Shown here one piece after another: positions 19,296-31,715 of a stretch of 38,835 nucleotides of DNA; position 1 is the first letter of the stretch, and each line of letters begins with the position of its first letter. The position numbers and the translations under genes were made by a program. This DNA comes from a virus (taxonomy: Duplodnaviria > Caudoviricetes), in the IMG/VR virus record IMGVR_UViG_3300012682_000010, positions 1 to 38,835 of that record, one strand, 5' to 3'. The notes under the pieces are model-generated. The model was not told the origin of the DNA and did not search any database. It saw only the letters and a list, made by a program, of their open reading frames with translations.

Positions 19296-20302
19296 GGGGC
19301 CTCGCCGAACAGGGTGGGTGTGTCGTGGAGGCAGCCGGGTGAGAACCACAGCGTCTCCTTGTGCCGATTGACGCTGTTCTGGCCGCCGCCGGCCGTGGTG
19401 CCGTAGCCGAGCGACGCCGAGTAGCGGTGGCGCCGCCAGCCGGGTGGGATGATGTGGTCGTGTTCGTCGACGTAGCCGGCGAGGACGATTCTCAGGCGCG
19501 GGTTGTTGCCGTGGTCGACGGCCCACCGTGCCACCTCGGTGCTGATCGTGTGGTCGTCGACGGCGTACAGGTCTGCGGTGCGGACGTCGCCGAGGTAGGG
19601 CGGGTCGAGGAACACCCCTACGGTGCCGCCATAGTTGAGTGCCCCGTTGGTGACGACCCGTGACCAGTCGCCGCAGCAGACCCGGACTCTGCGGAGCCGG
19701 TCGGCGAGCGCACGCATGTACCCGTAGACGGGTGGTTCCCGCCCGGCGTTGCCGAGGTGGGGGAGCTGGCGGTTCACGCCCCGCCCGGCGTTGCCGAGGT
19801 GGGGGCGCTGGCGGTTCACGCCCCGCCCGGCGTTGCCGAGGTGGGGGCGCTTGCCTTCTTCGTCGGCAATCCAGGGTCCGGTGCCGGAGCACCACCCGGA
19901 CCCGATCCACGCGTTGATGCCCCACACCCACCAGCCGGCGACCTTCACGTCGTAGAAGTCGGGGTCCGCTTCCAGCCCGGCGATCCGGGCCTTGCCCTCG
20001 TTGACGAGCCACAGGTGGCGGGAGAACAGGTCTGCCTCGTTCACCGGCCAGTCGGCATGGAACGCCACCCCGTCTGGGTCGGCGGCAAGCGCCCGCCAGA
20101 AGTTGGTCAGGTGCAGGTCGGCGTCGTTGACCGTCTCAGCCCGGCCCCGGTGCCAGGAGGGCCTTGCGAGGAGCGCGGCGAGGCTGCCGGCGAACGGTTC
20201 GACGTAGTTGTCGACGTCGCCGAGCGCAGACCAGACGAGGGGGGCGACGCGCCGTTTCCCGCCGAACCAGATGAACGGGGCCTTGAGGCCAGCCGCGCTC
20301 AC
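19292..20302 (-). CDS. DNA adenine methyltransferase (Dam/D12-like, alpha order)
   Basis: PFIWFGGKRR, YVEPFAGS, ETVND, FLDPPY. Confidence 0.9.
   Translation of the reverse strand: MSAAGLKAPFIWFGGKRRVAPLVWSALGDVDNYVEPFAGSLAALLARPSWHRGRAETVNDADLHLTNFWRALAADPDGVAFHADWPVNEADLFSRHLWLVNEGKARIAGLEADPDFYDVKVAGWWVWGINAWIGSGWCSGTGPWIADEEGKRPHLGNAGRGVNRQRPHLGNAGRGVNRQLPHLGNAGREPPVYGYMRALADRLRRVRVCCGDWSRVVTNGALNYGGTVGVFLDPPYLGDVRTADLYAVDDHTISTEVARWAVDHGNNPRLRIVLAGYVDEHDHIIPPGWRRHRYSASLGYGTTAGGGQNSVNRHKETLWFSPGCLHDTPTLFGEAP
19740..19851. repeat. 42-bp tandem repeat (about 2.7 copies) encoding RPHLGNAGRGVNRQ inside the methyltransferase
   Basis: gcccggcgttgccgaggtggggg recurs at 19741, 19783 and 19825. 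Confidence 0.9.
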
Positions 20303-20493
20303 TCGTCGAGGAACGGCCAGGCCCGCTCGGTGGCCTTGGCGGCGTGCATCTGGGCGCCGAGGATGAGTCGGACGGCGGGACCGACCCGGCCGTTGTCGGC
20401 CAGGTCGATGGCGGCGCGGGCCATGTTGATGGCGCAGGCGGCGTGGGCGGCGGCGAGCGCTTCCTGGTGGTCGTGGTCGGCGCGGGCGGTCAT
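20299..20493 (-). CDS. Hypothetical protein (64 aa)
   Basis: 4-bp overlaps on both sides; Ala-rich helical. Confidence 0.65.
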   Translation of the reverse strand: MTARADHDHQEALAAAHAACAINMARAAIDLADNGRVGPAVRLILGAQMHAAKATERAWPFLDE

Positions 20494-21008
20494 CGGATCA
20501 CCCGATGGAGCCGGGAGCGGGCCCGGTGCATGGCCAGTCCCCGCTCTGTCTTGAACCGCACCCCGCAGTCACAGACGGCAGGGTGGGCGGCGAGGTCTGT
20601 GGCGGCGTCTAGGGCCAGGATCATGGGGATCGCCTTGCGGTGGTCCCAGTAGTCCCGCACCTTCTGCCCGATGTGCCGCCCGAGCGAAACCCCCGAGTCC
20701 CGGTGGGAGCCGTAGCCGAACATGCGCCAAGCGGCGCAGGCGTCCCGTAGGGCGTGGGCTGCGTCCTCTACGTCCTGGTAGGTGAAGAACAGTCCAGCCG
20801 GCTTGCTGTGGGTCTCGTTCTCGCCGGCCGAGACGAGGGTGAGGTTCTGGGGGGAACAGGCGGGGGTGACGGGGATAATGGCCGGCTCGCGGTCGGGGTA
20901 GACGAGCACGACGAAGGCGACGTGCGGGTCGCCGTGCCGGCCTACGGCCAGGTCGGTGGCGAACGTCTCGAACCGGCGGACGAGGGGCGTGCGCAGATCG
21001 TCGGTCAT
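20490..21008 (-). CDS. Hypothetical protein with a C-terminal C2H2-like Zn finger
   Basis: Start re-called to ATG 21008 (GGAG upstream); CDCGVRFKTERGLAMHRARSRLH. Confidence 0.65.
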   Translation of the reverse strand: MTDDLRTPLVRRFETFATDLAVGRHGDPHVAFVVLVYPDREPAIIPVTPACSPQNLTLVSAGENETHSKPAGLFFTYQDVEDAAHALRDACAAWRMFGYGSHRDSGVSLGRHIGQKVRDYWDHRKAIPMILALDAATDLAAHPAVCDCGVRFKTERGLAMHRARSRLHRVIR

Positions 21009-21143
21009 CGGGTCAGCTCCCATCGGTGGAGGGCGTCTCGGGCTTCGGCGATGGCGTGCCGCCGGTCGATGGCGCGGCCGTTCAGGGCGTCGAGGATGCG
21101 GCGGAGGGCGGCGGCGAGCCTCGACGGCCGGGTCGGGGGTCAC
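21005..21143 (-). pseudogene. Small gene with an apparent frameshift near 21120
   Basis: The GTG 21143 frame reads MTPDPAVE. The +1 frame reads LAAALRRILDALNGRAIDRRHAIAEARDALHRWELTR*, with GC3-rich codons and a stop overlapping ATG 21008, but has no start of its own. Confidence 0.55.
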
Positions 21144-22510
21144 GGGTTGGCCGCCGTGGTGAGGTGGTCAACAACCGAAAGCGGGAACATGCCGAGGCGG
21201 TCGCGGGCCAGGTTGATGTTGCGGCGGTCGAGGTCGATGCCGATGGCTGAGCGGCCTTGGCCGAGGGCGGCGTCGAGGACTGTGCCGCTGCCGGCGAACG
21301 GGTCGAGGACCACGCCAGGGCGCCAGGTGGCGTGGCCGCAGTCGGTCCAGGTGTGCTCCCGTGTGACGTTCGTGGACATGACGAACTCACGGAAATACCC
21401 GCCGAGCACCTCTTTCGCTTCGGTGGCAAGCCGGGTGACGCGCTCGGTGTTGTGGCCGAAGCCGTTGTTGGTGACCTGCGCCTTGCCGGCGTCACTGGTG
21501 CCGAAGGCGCGGACCGCCAGGATGTGCTCGTCGGTCAGCCCTGCGGCGTCAGCGAGGGCAACGGCTCGCATCGTCTGCGGTCGGTCGGTGGCCCGGTAGG
21601 AGTCGAGGGTGAACTGGCCTGTGATCCGCCGTGACGGCTTCCCGCACTCCCGGCAGACACGTTCGGGGCACATCGCCCGGATCGGTGGGATGCACAGGGC
21701 GGCGGGAAACACGGCGTAGTGGCTGCCGGCGTACCCTTTCGGGCTGATCTTCCACCAGTCGAGCAACGGAGCGCCTGCAGGGTTGCCGCCTACGTGGTGG
21801 CCGTTGCCTCGTGCGTCACCGCCGGTCAGTCCGGTCGTGGCCCGGAAGTGGCCCATCGTCCGGCCCATCTCGTCGGGGTCGCTCTGGTGCGGCCCGCGGG
21901 TGGCGTCCTGGTCGAAGTAGCGGTCGGATGCTTTGCAGACAACGACCATCTCCGACGTGGCCGGCCGCCACTTGTCGCCCAACGCACCGACGGGCGGGTT
22001 GGGGTGCACCCAGCGGATCACGTTGCGTGCCCGCCACCGTGGGGTTTCCCGGCCGGTGAGCGGGTTGTGGCCGTAGACGAGGGCGACGCGGAACAGTTCG
22101 GGGATGAGGCACAGGCTCTTCGCCAGCGGCCTGCCTCTGTCGTCCCCGCCGGGGGTCCTCAGCCGGGCTGCCGAGCCATCGAACGCCGGCTGCCCCTCCC
22201 GTAGGCCCGCCGGCCCGTAGTCGCCACCCGCGCCACCGGACCCGCTGTAGGTGTCGCCCAGCTCGAAGCACATCGACCCGTGCGGCGCCAACACCCGGGC
22301 GCACGCCTCCACCACGTCGAGGAGGGCGTCCAAGAACGCGCCCGGCGTCGGTTCGCTGCCCATCTCGAACGGTTTCGCCGGGTCATCTGCCGGCAGGTAT
22401 GACCTGAGCGCCAGGAACGGCGGCGAGGTGACCACCAGGTCGACCGAGGCCGGCTCGAGGGTGGCGAGGACGGTGCGGGTGTCGCCCACGTGCCAGGTGA
22501 GGTCAGCCAC
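21140..22510 (-). CDS. Site-specific DNA methyltransferase (N4-C/N6-A, beta order) with an inserted domain
   Basis: GDTRTVL...VDLVVTSPPF, HYAVFPAAL, VLDPFAGSGT...GRSAIGIDL; start re-called to GTG 22510. Confidence 0.9.
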   Translation of the reverse strand: MADLTWHVGDTRTVLATLEPASVDLVVTSPPFLALRSYLPADDPAKPFEMGSEPTPGAFLDALLDVVEACARVLAPHGSMCFELGDTYSGSGGAGGDYGPAGLREGQPAFDGSAARLRTPGGDDRGRPLAKSLCLIPELFRVALVYGHNPLTGRETPRWRARNVIRWVHPNPPVGALGDKWRPATSEMVVVCKASDRYFDQDATRGPHQSDPDEMGRTMGHFRATTGLTGGDARGNGHHVGGNPAGAPLLDWWKISPKGYAGSHYAVFPAALCIPPIRAMCPERVCRECGKPSRRITGQFTLDSYRATDRPQTMRAVALADAAGLTDEHILAVRAFGTSDAGKAQVTNNGFGHNTERVTRLATEAKEVLGGYFREFVMSTNVTREHTWTDCGHATWRPGVVLDPFAGSGTVLDAALGQGRSAIGIDLDRRNINLARDRLGMFPLSVVDHLTTAANP

Positions 22511-22766
22511 GGTTGAGCCAGCCGCCCGGCACGTCCCAGTCGGGTTCGACGTCGACCAGCTCGCCATCGTCGATGTAGGCGACGTCCGTGCTGTCCTCGG
22601 CGAGCCACAGGCACAGCAGTGATGCGGCCTCATCCTTGTCGTCGTCGCTGGGCAGCGCCTCCCCTATCCGGCGCCACAGGTCAGCGAACCTGCCTTCGGG
22701 CGGCCAGGCGTAGACGTGGAGGCCGTCGTCGGCGACATGCCGGCCCGGTTCGGTGAGGTCGCTCAC
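22503..22766 (-). CDS. Acidic hypothetical protein
   Basis: GTG 22766 overlaps the WhiB stop; MSDLTEPGRHV... Confidence 0.6.
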   Translation of the reverse strand: MSDLTEPGRHVADDGLHVYAWPPEGRFADLWRRIGEALPSDDDKDEAASLLCLWLAEDSTDVAYIDDGELVDVEPDWDVPGGWLNRG

Positions 22767-23107
22767 GACGCCACCCGCCGGCCGCGCCCGCGGCGGAGGC
22801 GCTTCCGCTGCTTCTCGCTGAGCCCGCCCCACACGCCGAACCGCACCCCGGTGTCGAGCGCGTAGGTGAGGCAGGCGTCACGGACGGGGCAGCCGGCGCA
22901 CACCTTCTTCGCCGTCCCGGTGTCGTAGCCCCGGTCGGTGAAGAACAGGTCGGGCGGCATGCCCCGGCAGGCGGCCTGTTGGCGCCATGACGGGTCCGCC
23001 TCGCGGGCGCGGACGTCGACCCGTTCGGCCCGGCTGACCGGGTCGACAAGACCGGCGGCCTTCCGTGCCCGGTAGTCGCGCATCTGGTCTGCCCGGCTGG
23101 CACTCAC
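22763..23107 (-). CDS. whiB: WhiB family transcription factor
   Basis: WRQQAACRGMPPDLFF...AKKVCAGCPVRDACLTYAL...GVWGGLSEKQR: four Cys plus GVWGG; start GTG 23107. Confidence 0.95.
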   Translation of the reverse strand: MSASRADQMRDYRARKAAGLVDPVSRAERVDVRAREADPSWRQQAACRGMPPDLFFTDRGYDTGTAKKVCAGCPVRDACLTYALDTGVRFGVWGGLSEKQRKRLRRGRGRRVAS

Positions 23108-23628
23108 GGCGCCACCATCGGCGTTTCCCAGGTGACTGCGGCCAAACAGGCGGCCCGCATCGGGGTGAGGTGGTCGACGCCGCCGAGGAGGTGGTGGCCG
23201 ATGAGGGCGAGCCCCCAGGCGTCGGCTTCGTCGTCTTGCCGCCCGGTGTAGCCGACGGTTTGGGCGGCGGCGATCATCTGGTGTTTGTCGGCGTCGCCCC
23301 GCCCGGCCAAATGCTTTTTGAGGGTGCTGGTGGTGACGTAGGCGACGGGGCAGGTGTCGCCGAGCCGGTCGAGTACGACGGCGTGGAGCATGTTCAGGTC
23401 TCTTCCTGTTTTGCGGTTGGTGCCGGCGAACGGTGCTTCGATGACGGCGAGGACCGGCCAGAAGTCGCCGGTGATCGTGTCGATCCGGTCGGCGATGACG
23501 GTGCGCCGCCGGATGTCGGACCAGCCGGTGTGGGCGGTCAGGTTGGTGCGGATTCGGCCGGCGGCGCCGCCCCACACGGCCCAGCCGGTTGAGCGGACGC
23601 TGAGATCGAGCCCGAGCGGCGTTGTCAT
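23104..23628 (-). CDS. RuvC-like Holliday junction resolvase
   Basis: LGLDLSVRSTGWA, VIEAPF, LKKHLAGRGDADK, DDEADAWGLA; start ATG 23628. Confidence 0.88.
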   Translation of the reverse strand: MTTPLGLDLSVRSTGWAVWGGAAGRIRTNLTAHTGWSDIRRRTVIADRIDTITGDFWPVLAVIEAPFAGTNRKTGRDLNMLHAVVLDRLGDTCPVAYVTTSTLKKHLAGRGDADKHQMIAAAQTVGYTGRQDDEADAWGLALIGHHLLGGVDHLTPMRAACLAAVTWETPMVAP

Positions 23629-24137
23629 GCGCGCCTCCACCGCAGGATCGCCGCCATAAGCCACACGGGCTTCTGTGTTGGGTGGACGGTTGGCTCTCCG
23701 CTCTCTGTGGCCCGGAGGAGTCCCATCCAACGATGCCGGATCAGACGAGCGGGGCCGCCGAGATTCGACCACGCCATCTCCGCGTCGGCGTTGTCATTGA
23801 AGCCGATCGTTCGCTTGCCGGTTAGCCCATCGAGCTTGTCCCACACGATCCACGACGGGGACGGCGGTAGGCGGTCCGCGTAGTGGTTGGCACCGAACAG
23901 CACCACGCGGGGGAAGGTCAGGCAGGGCGCCGGATCGAACGGGGCGTCGTCCCCATAGACGGCCGGAAAATCTCGGCTCAGGCCGAGGCACGTCCTCCCG
24001 GCCGCGCCCCTCGCCGTCCGTTCGTTCACCCCGTAGGGCGGGTCGGTGAGGACGAGGTCCGCGCGAAGGTCAGGTAGCAGATCCCGACAGTCGCCGTGGT
24101 AGATGGTGATGCCGCCCTCGTCGTAGTACGGGGTCAC
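23625..24137 (-). pseudogene. C-terminally truncated N6/N4 DNA methyltransferase (lacks the SAM-binding motif I)
   Basis: PYYDEGGITIYHGDCRD, LTDPPYG, IVWDK, HPTQKPVWLM, then a stop; no DPFxGSGT motif follows. Confidence 0.75.
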
Positions 24138-25591
24138 GCCGCCTCCCCGCTGTCGGCGGCCTGGCCGCACGTCCGCTCGATCCGGGCGTCGGTCACGTGA
24201 GCGAAGCGGACCCGGACCGGTTCGGGCATGTCGTCGACGACGGCGTACCCGACGCCGGGCGTGTGCTCCGAGATGTTGTCGGCTCGTGCCCCACGGTCGC
24301 GGGCGCCTACCCCGAGGACAAGGTCGACCTGCCCGGCTTCCGCGGCCCGCAACGCCACCCGTGTCGGGAACAGGTCACGCATCCCCAACGTCTCCTTCCG
24401 GGCGTCCTGGGTGGCGCAGATCACGCTGTACCCGACCGCCCGACCCTGGCTCAACAGCATGCTGAGGGCGTTGCCGAGCTGTCGTCTCAGCGCCGGGTCC
24501 TGCACGTACGCGGTGAGACTGGCGATCTCGTCTACGACGATGACGATCAGCGGGTCGGCGACCGACGGGACCAGCTCGCGTGTCTTGCCTCGGAGCCGGT
24601 CGGCCCGGCGTTGCATGCCGGCGACGGCGGCGTCGAGCGCCGCCGCTATCTCCTCCGGCGGCCCGTGCACGAACTTGTGGAACAGCGGCTGCCCCAAGGC
24701 CAGTTCCATGCCGCCCTTCGGGTCGATGGCGAGCACCTTGACGGTGCCGGCCCGGATGGCGGGGGCCAGGCCTAGCAACAGCGACCAAATGACGGAGCCC
24801 TTGCCTGACCCGGTGAGCCCGGCGATCAGCAGATGCGAGTAGAGAACCCGGAGGGTGAACGGCGTCCCGTCCTCACGCATCCCCACTTCGATGGCTGACA
24901 GGTCAACCTCGGCCGGGCCGGCCGCCGGTCTCACGGGGACGTCGAGGGCGTCGGCGGTGAAGACGAGCAGGTCGAGTAGGTGGGCGCGTCGTGGCACGGT
25001 GCGGACCCGTACCTCGCGGGCGTCGAACGTTTGAGCGAGCCGTTCGGCCGCCTTCCCGTAGTCGCCGGCTGTCTGCCCGGGGCGCATCCGCAGGCGGATC
25101 ACGTCGTGGCCGTCGTCGGTGGTGACGCCGAGGAGGGTGGGCAGCATCTCCTGCCCGCGGTCTTGCTGGGTGAGCCCGGCGAACTTCATGGCGTTACGCC
25201 AGTCGCGGCGGTATGTGACGGCGGCCCGGACAACGGTGCGGAGCGCCGGCCGGGGTGTGCCGTCGTCGGTGTCGGCGAGGTGCCGTCGGCCGGCGGCGAG
25301 GAGTAGGACGGTGACGGCGGCGGCGGCGGGCGCCACGATCAGCCAGCCGTAGTCGTCGGCGGAGGCGACGAGTGCCCGCCACGCCCCGAAGACGAGGAGC
25401 ACACCGAGCGCCGTTTTCGGGTGACGGACAGCCCACACGGCCGCCAGCCACACGAACTTCAGGGAGAGGGCGGCGACGTAGAGGCCCCACGGGATTCGGA
25501 CGTGCGGGGTCCGGACGAGCGAGCCGCCTTTCCGTCCGCCGTGGACGGCGCGGTGGAGGGTGACGTCGAGTTTCGGGTCGTAGCGGGGCAC
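24134..25591 (-). CDS. FtsK/SpoIIIE DNA translocase of the actinomycete conjugative element (TraB/TraSA-like) type
   Basis: N-terminal TM segments; Walker A HLLIAGLTGSGKGS; IDPKGGMEL; Walker B IVVDEIASL; LSQGRAVG...ATQDARKE...RDLFPTRVALR; TPGVGY...PVRVR. Confidence 0.9.
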   Translation of the reverse strand: MPRYDPKLDVTLHRAVHGGRKGGSLVRTPHVRIPWGLYVAALSLKFVWLAAVWAVRHPKTALGVLLVFGAWRALVASADDYGWLIVAPAAAAVTVLLLAAGRRHLADTDDGTPRPALRTVVRAAVTYRRDWRNAMKFAGLTQQDRGQEMLPTLLGVTTDDGHDVIRLRMRPGQTAGDYGKAAERLAQTFDAREVRVRTVPRRAHLLDLLVFTADALDVPVRPAAGPAEVDLSAIEVGMREDGTPFTLRVLYSHLLIAGLTGSGKGSVIWSLLLGLAPAIRAGTVKVLAIDPKGGMELALGQPLFHKFVHGPPEEIAAALDAAVAGMQRRADRLRGKTRELVPSVADPLIVIVVDEIASLTAYVQDPALRRQLGNALSMLLSQGRAVGYSVICATQDARKETLGMRDLFPTRVALRAAEAGQVDLVLGVGARDRGARADNISEHTPGVGYAVVDDMPEPVRVRFAHVTDARIERTCGQAADSGEAA

Positions 25592-25782
25592 TAGGTGTTC
25601 GCCGTGTCAGGCTCGGCGTCGCGGGCGGGATCGGCAGCCCGGAGTGCGGCGACGTGCCTGCGGTCATGCCAGGCGAACACGACCACGACGAGCACCTGCA
25701 CGGCGAACACCACACCGAAGACGGCGGCGGCGACCACGACGGCGCCCGAGGGAGGGCCAGCCAGGAGCGACCCGGCAGTCAT
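25591..25782 (-). CDS. Small single-pass membrane protein
   Basis: ATG 25782; AVVVAAAVFGVVFAVQVLVVVVFAW; stop overlaps the FtsK start. Confidence 0.65.
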   Translation of the reverse strand: MTAGSLLAGPPSGAVVVAAAVFGVVFAVQVLVVVVFAWHDRRHVAALRAADPARDAEPDTANT

Positions 25783-25913
25783 CACTCGGGGACCCGTCCG
25801 GTCTCGGCGAACAGGCGGTAGAGGACGGGGCCGACCAGTTGGAGGAGGTCGATGATTCGGTCGGCGGCGAAGTTGGCCAGGAGCTCCCAGACGGCGGCGA
25901 GGGCGGCGGTCAC
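25782..25913 (-). CDS. Small amphipathic protein (43 aa)
   Basis: Hand translation MTAALAAVWELLANFAADRIIDLLQLVGPVLYRLFAETGRVPE*; overlaps both neighbours. Confidence 0.6.
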   Translation of the reverse strand: MTAALAAVWELLANFAADRIIDLLQLVGPVLYRLFAETGRVPE

Positions 25914-26122
25914 TTCGACGCCTCCAAGCACTGGGTGATCCGCCGGGCGAGCATCCGGGCGTCAGCACGGGACAGCCGTACGATCACCGTCCGGTCGGCT
26001 CTGAACAGCGTCAGGTCCACCAGGCGGCCGTCGGGGGCGACGGTGTTCACGTCACCGTTGCGGAGGCCGCCCGGGTGGTCCTCCCGCCAGAAGCGGAACG
26101 CGGCCGGGTAGTGGTGGACCAT
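25910..26122 (-). CDS. Hypothetical protein (70 aa)
   Basis: Coupled on both sides; LSRADARMLARRITQCLE helix. Confidence 0.65.
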   Translation of the reverse strand: MVHHYPAAFRFWREDHPGGLRNGDVNTVAPDGRLVDLTLFRADRTVIVRLSRADARMLARRITQCLEASK

Positions 26123-26496
26123 CAGCCGGCCTGCCCGTAGAGCCGGTCGAGTTCCTCGGCCAGGGCGGCGGAGTCAGCGAACCCGGTGCCGTCACAGACG
26201 ATGCAGTGCGCCCGCCAGTCCGGGCTCTCCCCGGCGCAGAACGGGCACGGGTCGGTGAGGGTGGCCCCGTCGTCGAGGAGGTGCCACAGGAGCAGCTGCT
26301 CGGCCGTCCCCGACCAGGTGAACGTGTCGCCCCACACGTCGTCGCCCCGCCCGAACCACCAGCCGATCTGGTCGTCCCAGCCGGCAGTGGCGACGGTCTG
26401 GTCGCCGTGGAGGGTGATGGTCCGCCCGTCGAGGACGGCGGTCGTCTCCCCGGTGTAGCCGTTGACGACCGGGGTCACGGCGGCGTGGGTCACCAT
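26122..26496 (-). CDS. Hypothetical protein with a DnaJ-like Zn-finger motif
   Basis: CPFCAG...CIVCDGTG; start overlaps the stop of the Gly-repeat gene. Confidence 0.65.
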   Translation of the reverse strand: MVTHAAVTPVVNGYTGETTAVLDGRTITLHGDQTVATAGWDDQIGWWFGRGDDVWGDTFTWSGTAEQLLLWHLLDDGATLTDPCPFCAGESPDWRAHCIVCDGTGFADSAALAEELDRLYGQAG

Positions 26497-26879
26497 CCGT
26501 TTCCGTTTCCGTTTCCGTATCCGTTTCCGTCTCCGTCTCCGTATCCGTCTCCGTATCCGTATCCGTCTCCGTATCCGTTTCCGTATCCGTTTCCGTATCC
26601 GTTTCCGTCTCCGTCTCCGTCTCCGTATCCGTTTCCGTCTCCGTATCCGTATCCGTCTCCGTCTCCGTCTCCGTCTCCGTCTCCGTCTCCGTATCCGTTT
26701 CCGTCTCCGTCTCCGTATCCGTATCCGTATCCGTATCCGTCTCCGTTTCCGTCTCCGTTTCCGTCTCCGTTTCCGTTTCCGTATCCGTCTCCGTTTCCGT
26801 ATCCGTATCCGTATCCGTCTCCGTATCCGTGCGTGGTCTGGCTGTTCTCCCCGAGCGACGCGACGAGACCTACCGCCAC
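26490..26879 (-). CDS. Gly-X (X = Tyr/Asp/Asn) repeat protein
   Basis: 17-aa leader MAVGLVASLGENSQTTH, then 55 G-[YDN] dipeptides, then GW; overlaps both the upstream stop and the downstream start. Confidence 0.75.
   Translation of the reverse strand: MAVGLVASLGENSQTTHGYGDGYGYGYGNGDGYGNGNGDGNGDGNGDGYGYGYGYGDGDGNGYGDGDGDGDGDGDGYGYGDGNGYGDGDGDGNGYGNGYGNGYGDGYGYGDGYGDGDGNGYGNGNGNGW
26496..26828. repeat. Hexamer array GGA[T/G/A]AC x55 (minus strand)
   Basis: 333 bp; five of six positions invariant; the variable base is T in 20, G in 21, A in 14 units and never C (counted from the translation). Confidence 0.97.
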
Positions 26880-27169
26880 GACCCGGGCTCGCAGTCGAAC
26901 GAGGCGACCGCCGTCAAAACGTGGAAGTGGACCGTGCCGGCCGGGTCCACGGTCGTCCCCGACTTCGGGCCTCCCACCAACTCACCGAGGCCCTTGCTGG
27001 TCCCCCACCGGCGGATCACCTTGGCGTCGGTGAGGGTGCAGTCGTCGCCGTCACGGTGCCAGCGGCCGACCATCACCCAGCCTCGCTGAAGGATGACGAT
27101 CCGCGTCTCGGCGGGTTCTTTGACGGGCCGGTACGCGGTGCCGTTGATGATGAGGTCGGGTGTGGTCAT
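26870..27169 (-). CDS. Small beta-rich (SH3/Sm-like) protein; partner of the Gly-X repeat gene
   Basis: ATG 27169 after AAGGAGA; RIVILQRGWVMVGRW...TLTDAKVIRRWGTSKGLGEL. From memory it resembles DUF6948-type phage proteins (unverified). Confidence 0.75.
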   Translation of the reverse strand: MTTPDLIINGTAYRPVKEPAETRIVILQRGWVMVGRWHRDGDDCTLTDAKVIRRWGTSKGLGELVGGPKSGTTVDPAGTVHFHVLTAVASFDCEPGSWR

Positions 27170-27186
27170 GGTGTCTCCTTGTTGGG

Positions 27187-27309
27187 TCACGGGTGGTCCT
27201 GTCGGTTGTGGTGCCGGTCGGTACGGTGGCGGGCGTCCAGGTCGGCGCCGACTGCGAGGATCAGCCAGACGACGGCGGCCGCCACCGGGCAGGCGAGGAG
27301 GGCGGTCAC
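27187..27309 (-). CDS. Small membrane peptide (40 aa)
   Basis: Hand translation MTALLACPVAAAVVWLILAVGADLDARHR...DHP*; GTGA overlap. Confidence 0.55.
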   Translation of the reverse strand: MTALLACPVAAAVVWLILAVGADLDARHRTDRHHNRQDHP

Positions 27310-27632
27310 CGGAGCGACTCCTCAAGGTCGACGACGGCCGCCCACCGTTCCCGGTGCCGGTCGGCGAGGTGGGCGAGGAGACGCTGGCAGGTGTCCGGCC
27401 ACGGGTGGGCGGCCCACCGTTTCGCCCCGGTGCCTGCGACCGTGACGGCGAGGCCCATGCTGACGAGCGTTTCGGCGGTGGCGTACACGCTGGTGCGGGG
27501 CACGCCCGACTCGACGGCCAGCGTGGTGCTGTCCGCCGGCCCGTCCCGTTCGACGAGGGCGATGAGCACGTCCGCCTGGTAGCGGGTGAGGCCAACCTTG
27601 AAGAGGGTCGTCTCTGGGTCGACGTTGGTCAC
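27306..27632 (-). CDS. TrmB-type winged-helix DNA-binding protein
   Basis: LFKVGLTRYQADVLIAL...LAVESGVPRTSVYATAETLVSMGL; start GTG 27632. Confidence 0.8.
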   Translation of the reverse strand: MTNVDPETTLFKVGLTRYQADVLIALVERDGPADSTTLAVESGVPRTSVYATAETLVSMGLAVTVAGTGAKRWAAHPWPDTCQRLLAHLADRHRERWAAVVDLEESLR

Positions 27633-28090
27633 GACGCCTCCCAGAGGGTGCGGGCGACGCCGCATGTCCCCTTGTCCAGGCGGGGGCGGGACGGGCAGTC
27701 CCAGCCACCACGGGCGGGGCGTTCCCCGATGACCCGCCACCCGGCTGCCCGCAGACTGGCGCCGCTCTCCCCCTCCTGTGTGTAGGTCAGGAGGCGCCCC
27801 CATCCGAGCGCCTTGGCTGCCTGCCACGCTGCGCCATAGAGACAGCTGTTCGCGTTCATGGTGCCGTCGGTGGCGGACCGGATGACCTCTAGCGTTCGGC
27901 CGTCCATGAGGTGCCGGGCGACCGGGTGGCTGGTGATGACGACGCCCCGGAGGATGCCGTCCTCTGTGGTCACGACTCCCTGGCTGTAGCGGTGCCCGTT
28001 TGGTGGGGCGTGGTGGCGGTGGTGGCCGTCGACGAAAGCGCAGGCTTCCCGCCAGGTGACTGGGACGATGGTGAGGCGCGGGCCCTTCAC
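27629..28090 (-). CDS. XF1762 family (Mom-like GNAT) protein, putative DNA modification
   Basis: EACAFVDGHHRHH, PVARHLMDGRTLEVIR..TDGT.NANS.LYGAAW.AAKALG...TYTQEGESGASLRAAGW. Confidence 0.8.
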   Translation of the reverse strand: MKGPRLTIVPVTWREACAFVDGHHRHHAPPNGHRYSQGVVTTEDGILRGVVITSHPVARHLMDGRTLEVIRSATDGTMNANSCLYGAAWQAAKALGWGRLLTYTQEGESGASLRAAGWRVIGERPARGGWDCPSRPRLDKGTCGVARTLWEAS

Positions 28091-29220
28091 GGCGCCGCCT
28101 CGTGGTCGCTGAGCCATGAGGACAGGGCCGCTTCGTCCTCGGAACCTTCGGGCAGCTTGGAGAGGACGGCCCTGACGAACCCGGCCGGGTCGCCGGAGCA
28201 GTTGCGGGCCCAGGTGGCGACCTTCGTCAGCTCGTGCGGTTCGACCTCGGCGGCGTTGGTGGTCCGGCCGCCGGTGGCCTTGGCGATCACGGCGAGGTGG
28301 AGCGGCGGTTCGATGCCGGCTTCTTCGAGGATTCCGGCGGCGTCCATGCCCCGCTGCGGGCGAGGGTGATCGTCCCGCCCGTTGTCGTCGAGCATGGTCG
28401 GCTGCGCCACCTCGGCGGTGTCCGGGTCGGGCGGGACGACGATGGCCGGGTCGAGGGCGGGCGGCGGGTCGTGCTCGATGATGGCCATCACACCGTCCGG
28501 GCGCTCCTGCATGGTGATGGTGGCGCCCTCGGCGTGCAGCGCCCGCTCGGCCACGACCGTCATGGGCAGGCCGTAGGCGCCGGCCGCAGCCCGGATGGCG
28601 CTCTTGGCCGCCATCGCCGGGTAGTCCGTCTTCCAGGCCGGACCGTCCTGGCCACGGTGGCGGCGACGTTCGATCTCGGGGAGGTCGATCACCACGAAGT
28701 CACGGCTGCCACCCGGGTAGTTCCACCGGCAGTAGGCGTGGGTCAGCTCCCCGCGCTCCCCGGCGGCAGGCGTGTGTTCGAGCAGGTCCGGCTCGTAGGA
28801 GTAGGCGAAGTGGTCGTGCTCGAACACCGGGCGGGCCACGACCGACACGACCTCGGGTGAGCGGCGCGCCAGCCGCAGGATGCCTTTGTATCCGAGCACG
28901 AACGTGCAGACCTTGCCGTAGGGGACGAGCCACGCCTCACCGGAGACGGACCCGAGTTCGAGTTCGGCTCGTGCGACTTCGAGGCAGGCGCCGACGATCG
29001 ACTCGACCGAGCAAAGGGCCAGTTTCGGCACCCGTTCGATCTGGACCATGACGGAGGCGGCCATTCGTTTGGCGTCGACGTGGTCGCCGGGCATGACGGC
29101 TTCGATGCGCTTGAGCCGCTGCTGGATGCCTTGGCTGATCTGCTGCTCAGCGGTGACGTTGCCACCCCCCTCCTGGCGGCGTTCGGCGGCGCCGGCAACC
29201 TGCTGTGCGAGGCCGCTCAT
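28087..29220 (-). CDS. recT: RecT family single-strand annealing protein
   Basis: PKLALCSVESIVGA, GEAWLVPY, FVLGYKGILRLARRS, PAWKTDYPAMAAKSAIR; start ATG 29220. Confidence 0.92.
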   Translation of the reverse strand: MSGLAQQVAGAAERRQEGGGNVTAEQQISQGIQQRLKRIEAVMPGDHVDAKRMAASVMVQIERVPKLALCSVESIVGACLEVARAELELGSVSGEAWLVPYGKVCTFVLGYKGILRLARRSPEVVSVVARPVFEHDHFAYSYEPDLLEHTPAAGERGELTHAYCRWNYPGGSRDFVVIDLPEIERRRHRGQDGPAWKTDYPAMAAKSAIRAAAGAYGLPMTVVAERALHAEGATITMQERPDGVMAIIEHDPPPALDPAIVVPPDPDTAEVAQPTMLDDNGRDDHPRPQRGMDAAGILEEAGIEPPLHLAVIAKATGGRTTNAAEVEPHELTKVATWARNCSGDPAGFVRAVLSKLPEGSEDEAALSSWLSDHEAAP

Positions 29221-29396
29221 CTTCGGCCGGCCCAGGTTTGGCAGGCGCCGCACCAGCCGATCCGGTTGTGCCGGGCCCGGTTGGGGCAGGCTTCGTCGCG
29301 GGGCGGGTCGTCGACGTGTTCGGCGGTGAGGGTGCGGGCCTCGTCCCGTTCGGCGGCTAGCACCGGGTTGGTGCAGTCGGCGGCGTCGGTAGGCAT
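29217..29396 (-). CDS. Small Cys/His protein (59 aa)
   Basis: Hand translation MPTDAADCTNP...CPNRARHNRIGWCGACQTWAGRR*; overlaps both neighbours. Confidence 0.6.
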   Translation of the reverse strand: MPTDAADCTNPVLAAERDEARTLTAEHVDDPPRDEACPNRARHNRIGWCGACQTWAGRR

Positions 29397-29680
29397 CAGG
29401 CGCCCCCCTCCTTCTTGAGGCGGCGCGCCTTGGCCGAGGCGAGGGCCAGCTTGGCCATGTGCGCCTTGCGCAAGTGCTCTGCCCGGCGGGCCCGCTCCTC
29501 GGGCGGCAGGATGCCGTCGGGGTCGGCCTGCTTCTCGAACCGGGCGGTCCTGGCGGTGCGGTCGGTGGTGTTCGCCCAGCTGGTGTGGGCGGCGGCCTGG
29601 GCTCTGAGTCGGCGCTCATCCGCCGACAGGCCAGTCCGGTCGTCCAGTGACGGGTCAGGCCTGGGGTTGGCGGCGATCAC
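29396..29680 (-). CDS. Conserved actinobacterial mobile-element hypothetical protein
   Basis: AAHTSWANTTDRTARTA...RFEKQADPDG.LPPEERARRAE..RKAHM.KLAL.SAKARR, a motif recognised from actinobacterial prophages. Confidence 0.75.
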   Translation of the reverse strand: MIAANPRPDPSLDDRTGLSADERRLRAQAAAHTSWANTTDRTARTARFEKQADPDGILPPEERARRAEHLRKAHMAKLALASAKARRLKKEGGA

Positions 29681-29862
29681 GCCGGCACGAACCCGGGGTC
29701 GGCGACAGGGATGGTGGCCTTCAGGTCGCGGAGGGCGGCGTCGACGAGGAGGGCGACGCCGACCATCCGCCGGCCGGCCTCCTCGTTCAGCCAGGCGGCC
29801 AGGTCGGCGTCGATGCTGACGGACACCTGCTTGCGGGCAGGCTTCGGTGTGCTGGGCATCAT
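29677..29862 (-). CDS. Ribbon-helix-helix (CopG/Arc-like) DNA-binding protein
   Basis: RKQVSVSIDADLAAWLNEEAGRRMVGVALLVDAALRD; AAGGAGA RBS. Confidence 0.75.
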   Translation of the reverse strand: MMPSTPKPARKQVSVSIDADLAAWLNEEAGRRMVGVALLVDAALRDLKATIPVADPGFVPA

Positions 29863-30044
29863 GTCTCCTTGGGTTGGTTGAGCAGGGGCCAGTCGGGGGG
29901 AGGTGAGACCGAGGCGACGCCGGGGCGGGCGCAGCAGAAGCACGGGTCGTCGCCGCGCCAGGACACCTCGCAGGGAACGCACCACCGCTGCGGCGAGAAG
30001 GCCCGCAACGCGGCGCCCACCTCGGGGGCGTCGTTGGCGTTCAC
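29859..30044 (-). CDS. Small Zn-ribbon protein
   Basis: CVPCEVSW...CFCC; coupled on both sides. Confidence 0.6.
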   Translation of the reverse strand: MNANDAPEVGAALRAFSPQRWCVPCEVSWRGDDPCFCCARPGVASVSPPPDWPLLNQPKET

Positions 30045-30391
30045 GAGATCACCCGGCTGAGGCCGAGCGGGATGCGCGGCCCGTCGTGCGCCTCGTTGGC
30101 GGCGTCGACATCTTGGAACTGGAAGTCGACGGGCAGGCCCGTTGCCTGCCGTGCCCAGATCGAGAGGGCGACGTTCAGGGCGGTGAGCCGCTGGTTATCG
30201 CCTCCCGTCAGGGCGTCGAACCTGTCGACGTCGAGCATGAGCCGCAGGTCAACGTCCCGCCAGTCCTCGTCCCGGGCAACGGACCCGACCAGGTAGGGCG
30301 GCTCACCGAAGGCCTCGTAGACCTGGGCACACCATCCGTTCAAGAGGAACATCTCGGGTGGGCTGAGGCTCGACGCTCGCCGGGCGCTCAC
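30041..30391 (-). CDS. Minimal nucleotidyltransferase (Pol-beta superfamily)
   Basis: YLVGSV...WRDVDLRL (GS + DxD) and LPVDFQFQ (third Asp); start GTG 30391. Confidence 0.75.
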   Translation of the reverse strand: MSARRASSLSPPEMFLLNGWCAQVYEAFGEPPYLVGSVARDEDWRDVDLRLMLDVDRFDALTGGDNQRLTALNVALSIWARQATGLPVDFQFQDVDAANEAHDGPRIPLGLSRVIS

Positions 30392-31482
30392 GGCGCCGCC
30401 TCGGCCTTGTGCTTGCTGGTCATGTGCCCTTCGACGTCCTGCGCCCGCAGCGCCGCCGTGCAATGCGGGCACGGGGAACGCACATCCAGGCGGCGCTGGT
30501 GCGACTCGACCGTGTATTGGGCGGCGATCTGCGACTCGTTCGCCCGTAACGCCACCAGGTCGACGTTCCGCACCGTCGACCGCTTCCAGGTGACCAGCGG
30601 GCGGACATCACCCGGGGCGACCTCAACCAGGCCGACCTCAGCCTCAGCGAGCGTCGCCTTCACCACGTTCTCCAGGTCGCAGATCTGCTCGTCGAGCGCC
30701 TTCCGTTCCCGCTTCAGGTAGCGGATCGAGCCGAGCTGCTCGGCGGCGCCGTCGTGCTCGTCGCCCAGGTCGATCTCGCCGCCGCCGCCTTCGCCGTAGG
30801 CCCGGGCCAACGCGTCCGCTGTCGCCTGCTGGTTGCCGCCGTCCAAGGCGGGGGGGACGTTGGCGAGGACGTGGTCGTGCCAGAAGGCCCGGCCGGCGTC
30901 GAGTAGGGCCGCCTCGTCGTCACGGTCGCGGGCCAGCTCGTACACCCGGAAGCTGCCGCGGGGGTGGAGGGTGGCGACCCAGCTGGTCGGCCAGTCGCCG
31001 GCCAGCATCTCCCACGACACCTGCGCCTTCAACCAGGGGGGGAGGTTGTCGCCGGGGCAGACCTTGTGGGTGCCGCCGCAGTCGCACCACGGCGGGTCGG
31101 ACGTGTATTTCAACTGCACCGGGCCGAGGGCGTCGTCGACCGTGGAGTCGTCGTCGACCTCGACGGCGAGGCCGTCGATGGTGGCCCGCACCCACGACAT
31201 CTCGCGGTGGCTCACCATCATCTGCTCGGCGGCGATGTAGAGGCCGGTGTCCTCCTCGAAGAAGCGGGCGAGCGTCGGTTCCAAGCGGAGGCCCATCAGC
31301 TGTGCGTCGCTGGCTTTCGACCCGTCGGGGGGGAGGAGGCCGGTCTTGGCCGCCCAGATCTCCCAGCGGGACCCCCATCTGCCGATGCCGCAGACGGCCG
31401 CGATCTCGCTGGCACCTATGCCCGTGCTGCGCGCCTTCCACCATGCCGGGCTGTGCGTCTCGGGGGCGGTGGTGGTGCTCAC
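30388..31482 (-). CDS. YqaJ-like (RecE-type) exonuclease with a C-terminal C2H2-like finger
   Basis: WWKARSTGIGASEIAAVCG, WAAKTG, G.RLEP, RATIDG, QVSWEM, FWHDHVLANVPP; ends CPHC...HMTSKH; start GTG 31482. Confidence 0.9.
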   Translation of the reverse strand: MSTTTAPETHSPAWWKARSTGIGASEIAAVCGIGRWGSRWEIWAAKTGLLPPDGSKASDAQLMGLRLEPTLARFFEEDTGLYIAAEQMMVSHREMSWVRATIDGLAVEVDDDSTVDDALGPVQLKYTSDPPWCDCGGTHKVCPGDNLPPWLKAQVSWEMLAGDWPTSWVATLHPRGSFRVYELARDRDDEAALLDAGRAFWHDHVLANVPPALDGGNQQATADALARAYGEGGGGEIDLGDEHDGAAEQLGSIRYLKRERKALDEQICDLENVVKATLAEAEVGLVEVAPGDVRPLVTWKRSTVRNVDLVALRANESQIAAQYTVESHQRRLDVRSPCPHCTAALRAQDVEGHMTSKHKAEAAP

Positions 31483-31715
31483 GTCGCCGCTCCGGGGTCG
31501 ATGCCGTCGAGGACGGTCCACCGGTCACCGCGGTCCGACATGAGCCCCAGGACAGAGCCGGCCAGCTGGACCCAGATGCCAGGGACCCGGCCGACGAAGA
31601 TCACGTCGTGTTCCGATCCGACGGTCAGGCCGTGCTTGTCGAGGTCGGCGCCGACGGCGGTGATGCGAATGCGGTCGCCGACCTTGGTGGTCGCCATCCC
31701 TCGGGTGTCAGCCAT
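31479..31715 (-). CDS. Small SH3-like hypothetical protein
   Basis: KVGDRIRITAV...LTVGSEHDV pattern; coupled. Confidence 0.6.
   Translation of the reverse strand: MADTRGMATTKVGDRIRITAVGADLDKHGLTVGSEHDVIFVGRVPGIWVQLAGSVLGLMSDRGDRWTVLDGIDPGAAT

What the first reader, a model, noticed from the sequence alone, without database searches (positions are those of the whole stretch)
26490..27169. Coupled two-gene module: small SH3/Sm-like protein plus a (Gly-Tyr/Asp/Asn)55 polymer written in a three-letter hexamer code
Seen in sequence: a 99-aa beta-rich ORF with a strong RBS overlaps an ORF made of a 17-aa leader plus 55 G-X dipeptides. Every Gly is GGA, an uncommon Gly codon in this GC-rich genome, and X is only TAC, GAC or AAC (20 Y, 21 D, 14 N). 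The order is aperiodic, with recurring sub-blocks such as DDNY and NY. One position varies, the other five are fixed, and C (His) is excluded. Inference: slippage homogenises the array while selection filters the allowed residues. Candidate roles are an acidic/aromatic low-complexity polymer (condensate, amyloid or polyglycine-II sheet; metal chelator; nucleic-acid mimic or decoy against host defence) whose leader is bound or processed by the partner. I recall this gene pair in other phages but know of no characterised function, which makes it the best candidate for an undescribed system here.
Basis: partly seen in the sequence, partly recalled or inferred. Interest (0 to 1): 0.85.

Follow-up and report, generated by a model that had tools for sequence, protein, structure and literature searches.

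The report
Phage Sm-like protein with Gly-X polymer
This phage carries a widespread, apparently undescribed gene pair: a small protein predicted to have the Sm/Hfq RNA-chaperone fold, and an overlapping gene for a fast-changing, randomly ordered glycine-(tyrosine/aspartate/asparagine) polymer that likely works as that protein's detached sticky tail, although binding and function are untested.

Summary
A 99-aa gene overlaps a 129-aa gene made of a 17-aa leader, 55 Gly-(Tyr20/Asp21/Asn14) units and Gly-Trp. The first protein is a DUF6948-related family with a predicted Sm/LSm fold. A Gly-X gene follows it in 79 of 79 viral loci and 44 of 52 genome loci. Selection acts on the peptide's composition, not on its order or RNA sequence: wobble bases switch array-wide between lineages (GGA is a local quirk), His is nearly absent, and near-identical isolates carry reshuffled arrays. 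A second Sm-fold family pairs with a basic Ser-(Trp/Arg/Gly) polymer, and some Gly-X arrays are fused to cargo domains. Best reading (30%): a split Sm oligomer plus an in-trans low-complexity tail, forming a multivalent assembly that acts on host RNA-binding or defence factors. The main rival is a toxin-antidote pair (20%). One point is unexplained: wobble bases stay uniform while one codon position stays randomised, and plain slippage did not reproduce this in toy simulations. My searches found no paper on it. This scan has already noted both cassettes on other genomes.

The parts
27175..27180 (-). Ribosome-binding site (AAGGAG) of the Sm-like gene
   Evidence: Seen in sequence, 5 nt before the ATG at 27169
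26870..27169 (-). Sm/LSm-fold protein, 99 aa, DUF6948-related subfamily; invariant Q28-R29-G30-W31, G35, G56, G60 and W98, nearly invariant R53, W55, T57
   Evidence: 249 homologues; alignments; AF2 pLDDT 89.8; VIA Z 8.6 to Lsm 6ppv_A, rmsd 2.3, 63 aligned; BFVD DUF6948 hit E 1.6e-7
26870..26879 (-). 10-nt overlap: the GTG start of the polymer gene lies in the codon of the partner's invariant terminal Trp
   Evidence: same arrangement in 63 of 80 loci (79 viral plus the window), and a start at the partner's stop in 15 more
26829..26879 (-). 17-aa leader of the polymer protein, with the conserved acidic-polar motif (consensus GExSQ)
   Evidence: Alignment A5; motif in 61 of 80 leaders
26499..26828 (-). 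55 hexamer units GGA-(T/G/A)AC encoding Gly-(Tyr/Asp/Asn) in random order
26490..26498 (-). Terminal Gly-Trp-stop, overlapping the ATG of the next ORF (26496-26122)
   Evidence: arrays end in GY (34) or GW (18) in 52 of 69 complete arrays

Best explanation
The two overlapping genes encode a protein predicted to have the Sm/Hfq fold and a randomly ordered Gly-(Tyr/Asp/Asn) polymer that likely acts as its detached low-complexity tail, and the two would co-assemble into a multivalent complex that likely ties up host RNA-binding or defence factors early in infection. Shown by sequence comparison: the pairing, the start codon inside or at the end of the partner gene, selection on peptide composition rather than order or RNA sequence, and rapid reshuffling of the array. 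Predicted: the Sm fold. Inferred: roughly 1:1 coupled translation; an oligomer (ring) whose conserved loop-2 and loop-4 residues (QRGW, RxWGT) form the ligand site; binding of the polymer through its leader and its Tyr 'stickers', with Gly as spacer and Asp/Asn/Ser keeping it soluble; and use of the same tag to bring fused cargo domains onto the Sm scaffold. The host target is a guess from genomic position.
For: Pairing: 79 of 79 viral loci with downstream sequence, two of them cut after 3-4 units; 44 of 52 genome loci; 14 of 15 canonical DUF6948 loci. Reverse test: 50 of 59 mixed GGC arrays and 20 of 25 mixed GGA arrays have a detectable partner upstream, and one more has Pfam DUF6948 over the cut-off. 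No conserved third gene in 138 loci. Independent start: an SD-like motif precedes the NTG in 35 of 63 loci, against 10.2 of 80 control windows; slippery heptamers 5 vs 5. Protein-level selection: all four Gly codons and both NAC and NAT serve as array-wide states, with at least 27 switches on the partner tree. The variable base has mean heterozygosity 0.56 against 0.03 and 0.06 at the two wobble sites; Tyr and Asp occur in 92 of 92 arrays; His makes up 17 of 2478 units. Predicted RNA folding energy varies from -18 to -63 kcal/mol per 120 nt by codon type. Oligomer hint: 24 of the best 150 profile hits have two tandem domains. Sister cassette: a second Sm-fold family (Z 9.1) is followed by Ser-(Trp/Arg/Gly)n in 67 of 80 loci. 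There Ser is encoded by TCN or AGY, and the partner is more acidic (median net -2, against +1 for type I). Six of 123 complete arrays carry a C-terminal domain over 100 aa, with weak DUF7666 and DUF6745 hits in two. Precedents for Sm cores with functional or repeat-derived disordered tails: Acinetobacter Hfq GGFGGQ (PMC11617691, abstract) and Borg Sm proteins (PMC9879509, passages).
Against: No experiment shows translation, binding, ring formation or any effect on a host. Z 8.4-8.6 is only just above the level the tool calls common; Foldseek found no PDB hit at E<=0.001 (best 2.2e-3), and a profile search of PDB sequences found no Sm protein. The window's own GTG has no clear SD motif. The leader differs between subfamilies and is only 4 residues in Eggerthella phage PMBT5, so it is not a universal docking motif. 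Partner charge does not track the Asp fraction of its array (rho -0.05, p=0.69, n=75). Nine of 59 mixed GGC arrays had no detectable partner, and one genome locus (L128) has a partner without an array. PADLOC gave no hit. The anti-defence role rests on position alone (among Mom-like, methylase, RecT/YqaJ and RuvC genes).
Confidence: 0.3

Rival explanations
1. Toxin-antidote or exclusion cassette: the polymer is toxic (aggregating Gly-Tyr strands here, Arg/Trp-rich strands in the sister cassette) and the upstream Sm-fold protein neutralises it. This would give abortive infection, superinfection exclusion or selfish maintenance.
For: The gene order and coupling resemble type II toxin-antitoxin pairs (recalled). 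In four Pectobacterium phage genomes the pair is a free-standing insert, reversed between a tail-fibre gene and a membrane gene; the one scanned (L252) has a sigma-70-like promoter match, at chance level in shuffles. There is no third gene. The basic polymer has a more acidic partner.
Against: Extra polymer genes occur in tandem behind one partner (L070; L315, L323, L386), which is the wrong stoichiometry for an antidote. Arrays fused to cargo domains look like tags. PADLOC gave no hit.
Confidence: 0.2
2. The polymer is itself the effector: a single-stranded nucleic-acid mimic or a silk/amyloid-like beta-sheet decoy, with the Sm-fold protein serving only as a chaperone or nucleator.
For: Strict two-residue period over 15 or more units in 92 arrays; aromatic residue always present; order indifferent. 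A dipeptide has six backbone atoms, like one nucleotide (established chemistry).
Against: Acidity is dispensable (Asp fraction 0-0.64), unlike known DNA mimics such as Ocr (recalled). Degenerate arrays with broken period but the same composition exist (L023, L025, L118, L140). The sister polymer is basic.
Confidence: 0.15
3. The repeat works as RNA or DNA: a CsrA/RsmA sponge (ACGGA motifs), binding sites for the Sm ring on its own mRNA, or a G-quadruplex.
For: The window array repeats ACGGA 55 times. Wobble bases are uniform within arrays, and GGC is used far above background in low-GC loci (0.82 vs 0.19).
Against: GGA dominates only 2 of 78 arrays. No Rfam hit at E<=1. Folding energy is not conserved. 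The sister cassette keeps Ser across TCN and AGY codons. Start, leader and in-frame stop are conserved.
Confidence: 0.05
4. A cis-acting translation sensor: the Tyr/Asn/Asp codons are read by queuosine tRNAs, so ribosome stalling on the array would report tRNA damage and tune the downstream genes.
For: TAC, GAC and AAC are three of the four Q-tRNA codon boxes (recalled). The array's stop overlaps the next start codon in the window.
Against: His, the fourth Q codon and a transition neighbour of Tyr, is nearly excluded (17 of 2478), while Ser is present in 28 of 92 arrays and usually takes the place of Asn. Downstream genes are not conserved, and some cassettes end in a terminator-like hairpin.
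Confidence: 0.05
5. A programmed -1 frameshift fuses the polymer to the Sm domain, giving an Hfq- or SmD-like tailed protein.
For: The array is in the -1 frame in 67 of 80 loci. One database protein (P0244) ends in a short G-X tail.
Against: 13 of 80 loci use the other frame with a fresh ATG. Slippery heptamers are not enriched (5 vs 5), while SD motifs before the NTG are.
Confidence: 0.04
6. A neutral microsatellite or an assembly artefact behind an unrelated gene.
For: Contigs often break inside the array.
Against: Present in finished genomes of cultured phages. Frame, leader, stop and a mixed alphabet are kept across hosts of many phyla.
Confidence: 0.03

Closest known systems
Pfam DUF6948 (PF22253)
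   Same: Close homologues score 24-27 bits against it. The predicted structure matches DUF6948 proteins. Canonical members are also followed by G-X genes (14 of 15 loci).
   Different: The window protein has no Pfam hit at E<=0.1, so it is a divergent subfamily. The family has no function, and no paper in the library names it.
Hfq of Acinetobacter baumannii with (GGFGGQ)n tail and acidic tip (PMC11617691; abstract and opening read)
   Same: Sm core plus a Gly/aromatic low-complexity repeat whose copy number matters for function
   Different: There the tail is fused and has a fixed hexapeptide. Here it is a separate coupled gene, a random three-letter dipeptide copolymer, in phages, and the partner has no detectable sequence similarity to Hfq or Sm.
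Borg Sm ribonucleoproteins with amino-acid tandem repeats (PMC9879509; passages read)
   Same: Mobile-element Sm proteins linked to fast-evolving, repeat-derived disordered regions
   Different: Borg repeats are fused N-terminally, have units of 4-17 aa, and keep the Sm1/Sm2 motifs. Here the repeat is a separate gene of dipeptide units.
[quoted passage not shown]
   Same: Phage-type Sm fold without the N-terminal helix; Z 8.4, rmsd 2.6, 68 aligned
   Different: 15% identity; no partner polymer is mentioned in the passages I read; function unknown.
Phage contingency loci (PMC12633550; start of abstract and two passages read)
   Same: Slippage-prone repeats that vary among near-identical phages
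   Different: Those cause reversible frameshifts. Here all changes are in-frame hexamer indels or swaps at one codon position.
Eukaryotic SmB/D1/D3 and LSm4 with RG-dipeptide tails; FUS-type [G/S]Y[G/S] domains (RG tails mentioned in PMC3710371; FUS recalled)
   Same: Sm fold beside dipeptide repeats; Tyr flanked by Gly
   Different: Fused, eukaryotic and methylation-controlled; no homology was tested or is claimed.

Membership tests
Sm/LSm/Hfq | Bent five-stranded antiparallel Sm barrel | tested here: met
   On a predicted model: VIA Z 8.6, rmsd 2.3, 63 aligned to Lsm 6ppv_A, with the top rows nearly all Sm/LSm
Sm/LSm/Hfq | Recognisable Sm1/Sm2 sequence motifs (Pfam LSM/Hfq or similarity to solved members) | tested here: not met
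   No Pfam, PHROG or NCBIfam hit; no Sm protein in a PDB profile search at E<=10. File as Sm-like fold, not as an Hfq/LSm member.
Sm/LSm/Hfq | Cyclic oligomer through beta4-beta5' pairing | tested here: inconclusive
   Only indirect: 24 of the best 150 hits are tandem two-domain proteins; the ring was not modelled.
Sm/LSm/Hfq | Single-stranded RNA binding | not testable with these tools
DUF6948 (PF22253) | HMM score over the 27-bit cut-off | tested here: inconclusive
   The window protein has no hit; 6 of 7 homologues tested score 24.3-26.9 bits; structural hit E 1.6e-7.
DUF6948 (PF22253) | Shared neighbourhood with canonical members (downstream G-X gene) | tested here: met
   L237 (107 bits) and 13 of 13 viral loci; the weak 21-bit hit L238 lacks it.
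Diversity-generating retroelement | Adenine-specific randomisation of the variable repeat | tested here: not met
   The A of GGA is invariant in 56 of 56 codons and the middle A of the X codon is constant.
Diversity-generating retroelement | Linked reverse transcriptase and template repeat | tested here: inconclusive
   No conserved third gene in 138 loci and no RT among the window ORFs scanned (not all ORFs were scanned, and the record is about 56% complete).
CsrB/RsmY/RsmZ sponge RNAs | Conserved GGA motifs in hairpin loops; Rfam match | tested here: not met
   GGA dominant in 2 of 78 arrays; no Rfam hit.
Phage contingency loci | Repeat-length change switches the reading frame | tested here: not met
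   All variants among 20 Barba isolates are in-frame.
Type II toxin-antitoxin systems | Toxicity of the downstream product, relieved by the upstream one | not testable with these tools
   Gene order fits; no PADLOC hit.

The most novel reading that the evidence does not exclude
Phages encode a family of orthogonal 'Sm ring plus random copolymer' systems, acidic Gly-(Tyr/Asp/Asn/Ser) and basic Ser-(Trp/Arg/Gly), in which each dipeptide stands in for one nucleotide. The polymer is a genetically encoded, random-sequence mimic of single-stranded RNA, threaded on or displayed by the ring as a decoy or cargo tag, and its one variable codon position is kept randomised by a sub-unit exchange process that ordinary slippage does not explain.
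Probability: 0.12. Interest if true: 0.9.

Novelty: categorically new. Interest (0 to 1): 0.66.

Why it matters
The partner family alone has 1533 clusters at 50% identity and occurs in contigs assigned to many bacterial phyla, yet my searches found nothing in print. The cassette is self-contained, present in cultured phages with tractable hosts (Rheinheimera Barba phages, Rhodobacter RcapNL), and comes in an acidic and a basic version, so cognate binding, toxicity and anti-defence activity can be tested directly. It would assign a role to DUF6948. It would also give a prokaryotic, genetically simple case of an Sm-fold scaffold with a low-complexity partner in trans, and a natural model of a coding repeat selected for composition with random order.

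Tried and rejected
Complex prediction (two copies of partner residues 16-99 plus the first 57 aa of the polymer, both as 63-row alignments): no verdict, score 0.01 against a mark of 0.32, no controls run; it says nothing either way. Pfam TrAA12 (E 6e-9, over cut-off) and NCBIfam ser_rich_anae_1 (27 bits against a cut-off of 650) on the polymer were rejected as low-complexity matches. Profile-profile comparison of the type I and type II partners was not significant (probability 1.2%), so their kinship rests on predicted folds only. The search for longer fused forms gave 2 hits, neither with a G-X tail. Sequencing runs: only X1 holds the region; X7, X23 and X3 gave short unrelated matches or none, so there is no expression evidence. 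No promoter, terminator or Rfam match at 25900-27700. The atlas and PHROG searches on the cargo domain of L318 gave only unnamed viral clusters. PF22253 in 401 genomes gave 2 matches. Homopolymeric GGA-GAC or GGA-AAC runs from the DNA pattern scan are mostly unrelated (2 of 52 with a partner) and were set aside. Toy simulations (arbitrary rates and composition limits): slippage alone or with whole-unit conversion did not give uniform wobbles with frequent array-wide switches and random order, while single-site exchange or randomisation of the variable base came close; the two could not be told apart. Literature searches without a relevant paper: 0 papers; listings only, none on this cassette.

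Full report
Observation. The two ORFs are as described: 27169-26870 (99 aa, AAGGAG before the ATG) and 26879-26490 (GTG start, 17-aa leader, 55 Gly-X units with Tyr 20, Asp 21 and Asn 14, then Gly-Trp-stop). All 56 Gly codons are GGA, against 8 of 193 in seven neighbouring ORFs. Shuffles of the window never give more than 2 such units in a row. The unit order is statistically random, and the claimed sub-blocks are at chance level. The likely source run covers both flanks exactly, but the tool skips the repeat, so this contig's exact unit order is unverified. The window is a 38.8-kb, roughly 56% complete, GC-rich tailed-phage record with WhiB. The pair sits among early accessory genes: Mom-like, methylases, RecT/YqaJ and RuvC.

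The partner. It has 249 close homologues and 1533 clusters at 50% identity by profile. It has no family hit itself, but 6 of 7 homologues tested score just under the DUF6948 cut-off, and the atlas and BFVD point to DUF6948. The AF2 model (pLDDT 89.8) matches Sm/LSm proteins best: Z 8.6, rmsd 2.3, 63 aligned to 6ppv_A, and Z 8.4 to the cyanophage-type 3by7; Foldseek's top PDB rows are Sm proteins but only at E about 2e-3. No Sm sequence similarity is detectable. The invariant QRGW lies in the beta1-beta2 loop and RxWGT-GLGE in the long beta3-beta4 loop. In Sm rings these loops face the lumen and the distal face (PMC3710371, passages); that they form a ligand site here is inference. Twenty-four of the best 150 profile hits are tandem two-domain proteins, which hints at oligomerisation.

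The pairing. Of the best 80 of 277 viral loci, one ends at the partner; the other 79 all have a G-X frame directly downstream, two cut after 3-4 units. In genome contigs 44 of 52 do, two of them degenerate. The 8 misses are 3 contig ends, 1 N-gap, 2 broken partners, 1 short degenerate array and 1 clear absence. Canonical DUF6948 loci behave the same (14 of 15), as do cultured Rheinheimera, Rhodobacter, Eggerthella, Pectobacterium and Iodobacter phages. In the reverse direction I scanned for the DNA repeat (about 1100 GGC-type and about 121 GGA-type stretches estimated, 120 of each fetched). Among mixed arrays with at least 400 nt upstream, 50 of 59 and 20 of 25 have a partner by my HMMs, and one more by Pfam. 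No third gene is conserved. The polymer's start codon lies in the partner's terminal Trp codon in 63 of 80 loci and at its stop in 15. SD-like motifs are enriched there (35 of 63 against 10.2 of 80) and slippery sites are not, so two coupled genes are likelier than a frameshift fusion. In four Pectobacterium phages the pair is a reversed stand-alone insert.

What selection keeps. Each array uses one Gly codon almost throughout, but which one varies: GGC 64, GGG 9, GGT 3 and GGA 2 of 78. The X wobble is likewise all C or all T. The partner tree needs at least 27 such switches (123 rows, 86 columns, many weak forks; well-supported branches alone force at least 8 for NAT and 5 for GGG), and the window's nearest relative uses GGC. 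In 92 clean arrays the first base of the X codon has mean heterozygosity 0.56, against 0.03 and 0.06 at the wobbles. Tyr and Asp occur in all 92, Asn in 64, Ser in 28, and His in only 17 of 2478 units. The aromatic fraction never falls below 0.14, while Asp runs from 0 to 0.64; length is 10-56 units; 52 of 69 complete arrays end in GY or GW. RNA folding energy is not conserved and Rfam is silent. The conserved thing is therefore a peptide of mixed aromatic and small polar composition.

Hypervariability. I fetched 20 of 115 Barba isolates, choosing half of them for being variant, so these are not frequencies. They show 9 array alleles, with no difference in 167 nt upstream and 140 nt downstream among the 14 compared: single-unit gains, two Asn-to-Tyr swaps, one Tyr/Asn exchange, and a wholly different order in 19A and 31A, where 19A's partner region differs at 1 of 322 nt. 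Pectobacterium phages with 3 differences in 610 flanking nt have unrelated arrays. Across the family, neighbouring units are identical no more often than chance (908 against 933), though 35 of 92 arrays have excess repeated 5-unit blocks. Uniform wobbles across all residue classes (80 of 92), frequent array-wide switches and random order did not arise together in toy models of slippage or whole-unit conversion; single-site exchange or randomisation of the variable base came close. This is unexplained. A DGR is excluded because the adenine of GGA never varies.

A wider family. A second protein family found beside some cassettes has the same predicted topology and Z 9.1 to Lsm and SmAP, with no significant profile similarity to the first. 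It is followed by Ser-(Trp/Arg/Gly)n in 67 of the best 80 of 380 loci. In 46 clean arrays Ser is TCG 19, TCT 11, AGC 8, TCA 7 and AGT 1, and Arg is AGG only in 27 or CGG only in 14, which again points to the peptide. Both alphabets pair an aromatic, a charged and a small residue. Six of 123 complete G-X arrays continue into domains over 100 aa, two with weak DUF7666 or DUF6745 hits, which suggests the array can serve as a tag.

Mechanism. I commit, at 30%, to a split Sm oligomer with an in-trans low-complexity tail. The products would be made in step, bind through the leader and the Tyr stickers, and form a multivalent assembly that holds host RNA-binding or defence factors or fused cargo. Pairing, coupling signals, protein-level selection and reshuffling are shown; the fold is predicted; binding, ring formation and target are inferred. 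The analogies are the fused GGFGGQ tail of Acinetobacter Hfq (PMC11617691, abstract and opening) and the repeat-bearing Borg Sm proteins (PMC9879509, passages); both papers came as leads from earlier scan notes. Against this reading stand the variable, sometimes minimal leader, the lack of charge covariation and the orphans on both sides. The rivals are a toxin-antidote cassette (20%), a polymer that is itself a nucleic-acid mimic or beta-sheet decoy (15%), and RNA-level, tRNA-sensor, frameshift and neutral readings (5% or less each).

Novelty. Searches for DUF6948, for the peptide words, for phage plus Sm-like plus dipeptide repeat, and for DUF7666/DUF6745/PF22253 returned 0 papers. The library lacks most subscription papers and I read no supplements, where the genes may be listed as hypothetical. 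Phage contingency loci (PMC12633550, start of abstract and two passages) are frameshifting repeats and differ. This scan has reported both cassettes on other genomes; those notes agree with my reading but are not independent evidence, and I reached the same description before opening them. No described system matches the pair, so I rate it categorically new as a system, built from a known fold, with its function open; interest 0.66.

Noticed in passing
L070:927-1800, L046:3051-3540, L122:770-1349; L147 and L158-L236: Sister cassette: an Sm-fold protein with no Pfam family followed by Ser-(Trp/Arg/Gly)n genes (67 of 80 loci), sometimes with two polymer genes and sometimes next to a G-X cassette.
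   Followed up: yes
L318, L280, L414, L400, L385, L432, L290: G-X arrays fused to globular cargo domains: an unnamed viral domain, DUF6745-like and DUF7666-like. A related unnamed domain lies directly upstream of G-X genes in L296 and L386.
   Followed up: partly
P0123-P0131 and 15 more of the best 150 hits: Tandem two-domain versions of the partner; their gene neighbourhoods were not seen.
   Followed up: partly
window 25898-27303 and 26836-27082 (run X1): More abundant contigs join 25898 or 25901 to 27303, suggesting relatives without this 1.4-kb stretch (weak: 85% likeness setting, short sides). A second strain differs at 31 sites in the partner gene and also stops at the array.
   Followed up: no
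L256:1176-1406 approx. (PhiPLPE) and L094:1130-1370 approx. (MW202566): The G-X gene is unannotated in PhiPLPE and annotated in the wrong (Val-Met) frame in MW202566; elsewhere it is mislabelled 'lamprin' or 'adsorption protein'.
   Followed up: partly
window 20490-31521: Early region with WhiB (likely actinobacterial host), RuvC, FtsK-like ATPase, two DNA methyltransferases, a Mom-like modification protein (27629-28117), TrmB-type HTH, RecT and YqaJ; DnaB, portal, capsid, tape measure and amidase lie elsewhere in the window.
   Followed up: partly
window 19738-19851: 42-bp tandem repeat, 2.7 copies, 98% match, inside the long DnaB ORF and an overlapping methyltransferase ORF.
   Followed up: no
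L105:1536-2270, L115:86-500, L145:5074-5259, L027: Other low-complexity phage proteins near the cassette: an Ala-(Asn/Tyr/Ile/Asp) tail, Ala-rich repeats, pentapeptide repeats and DUF6745.
   Followed up: no
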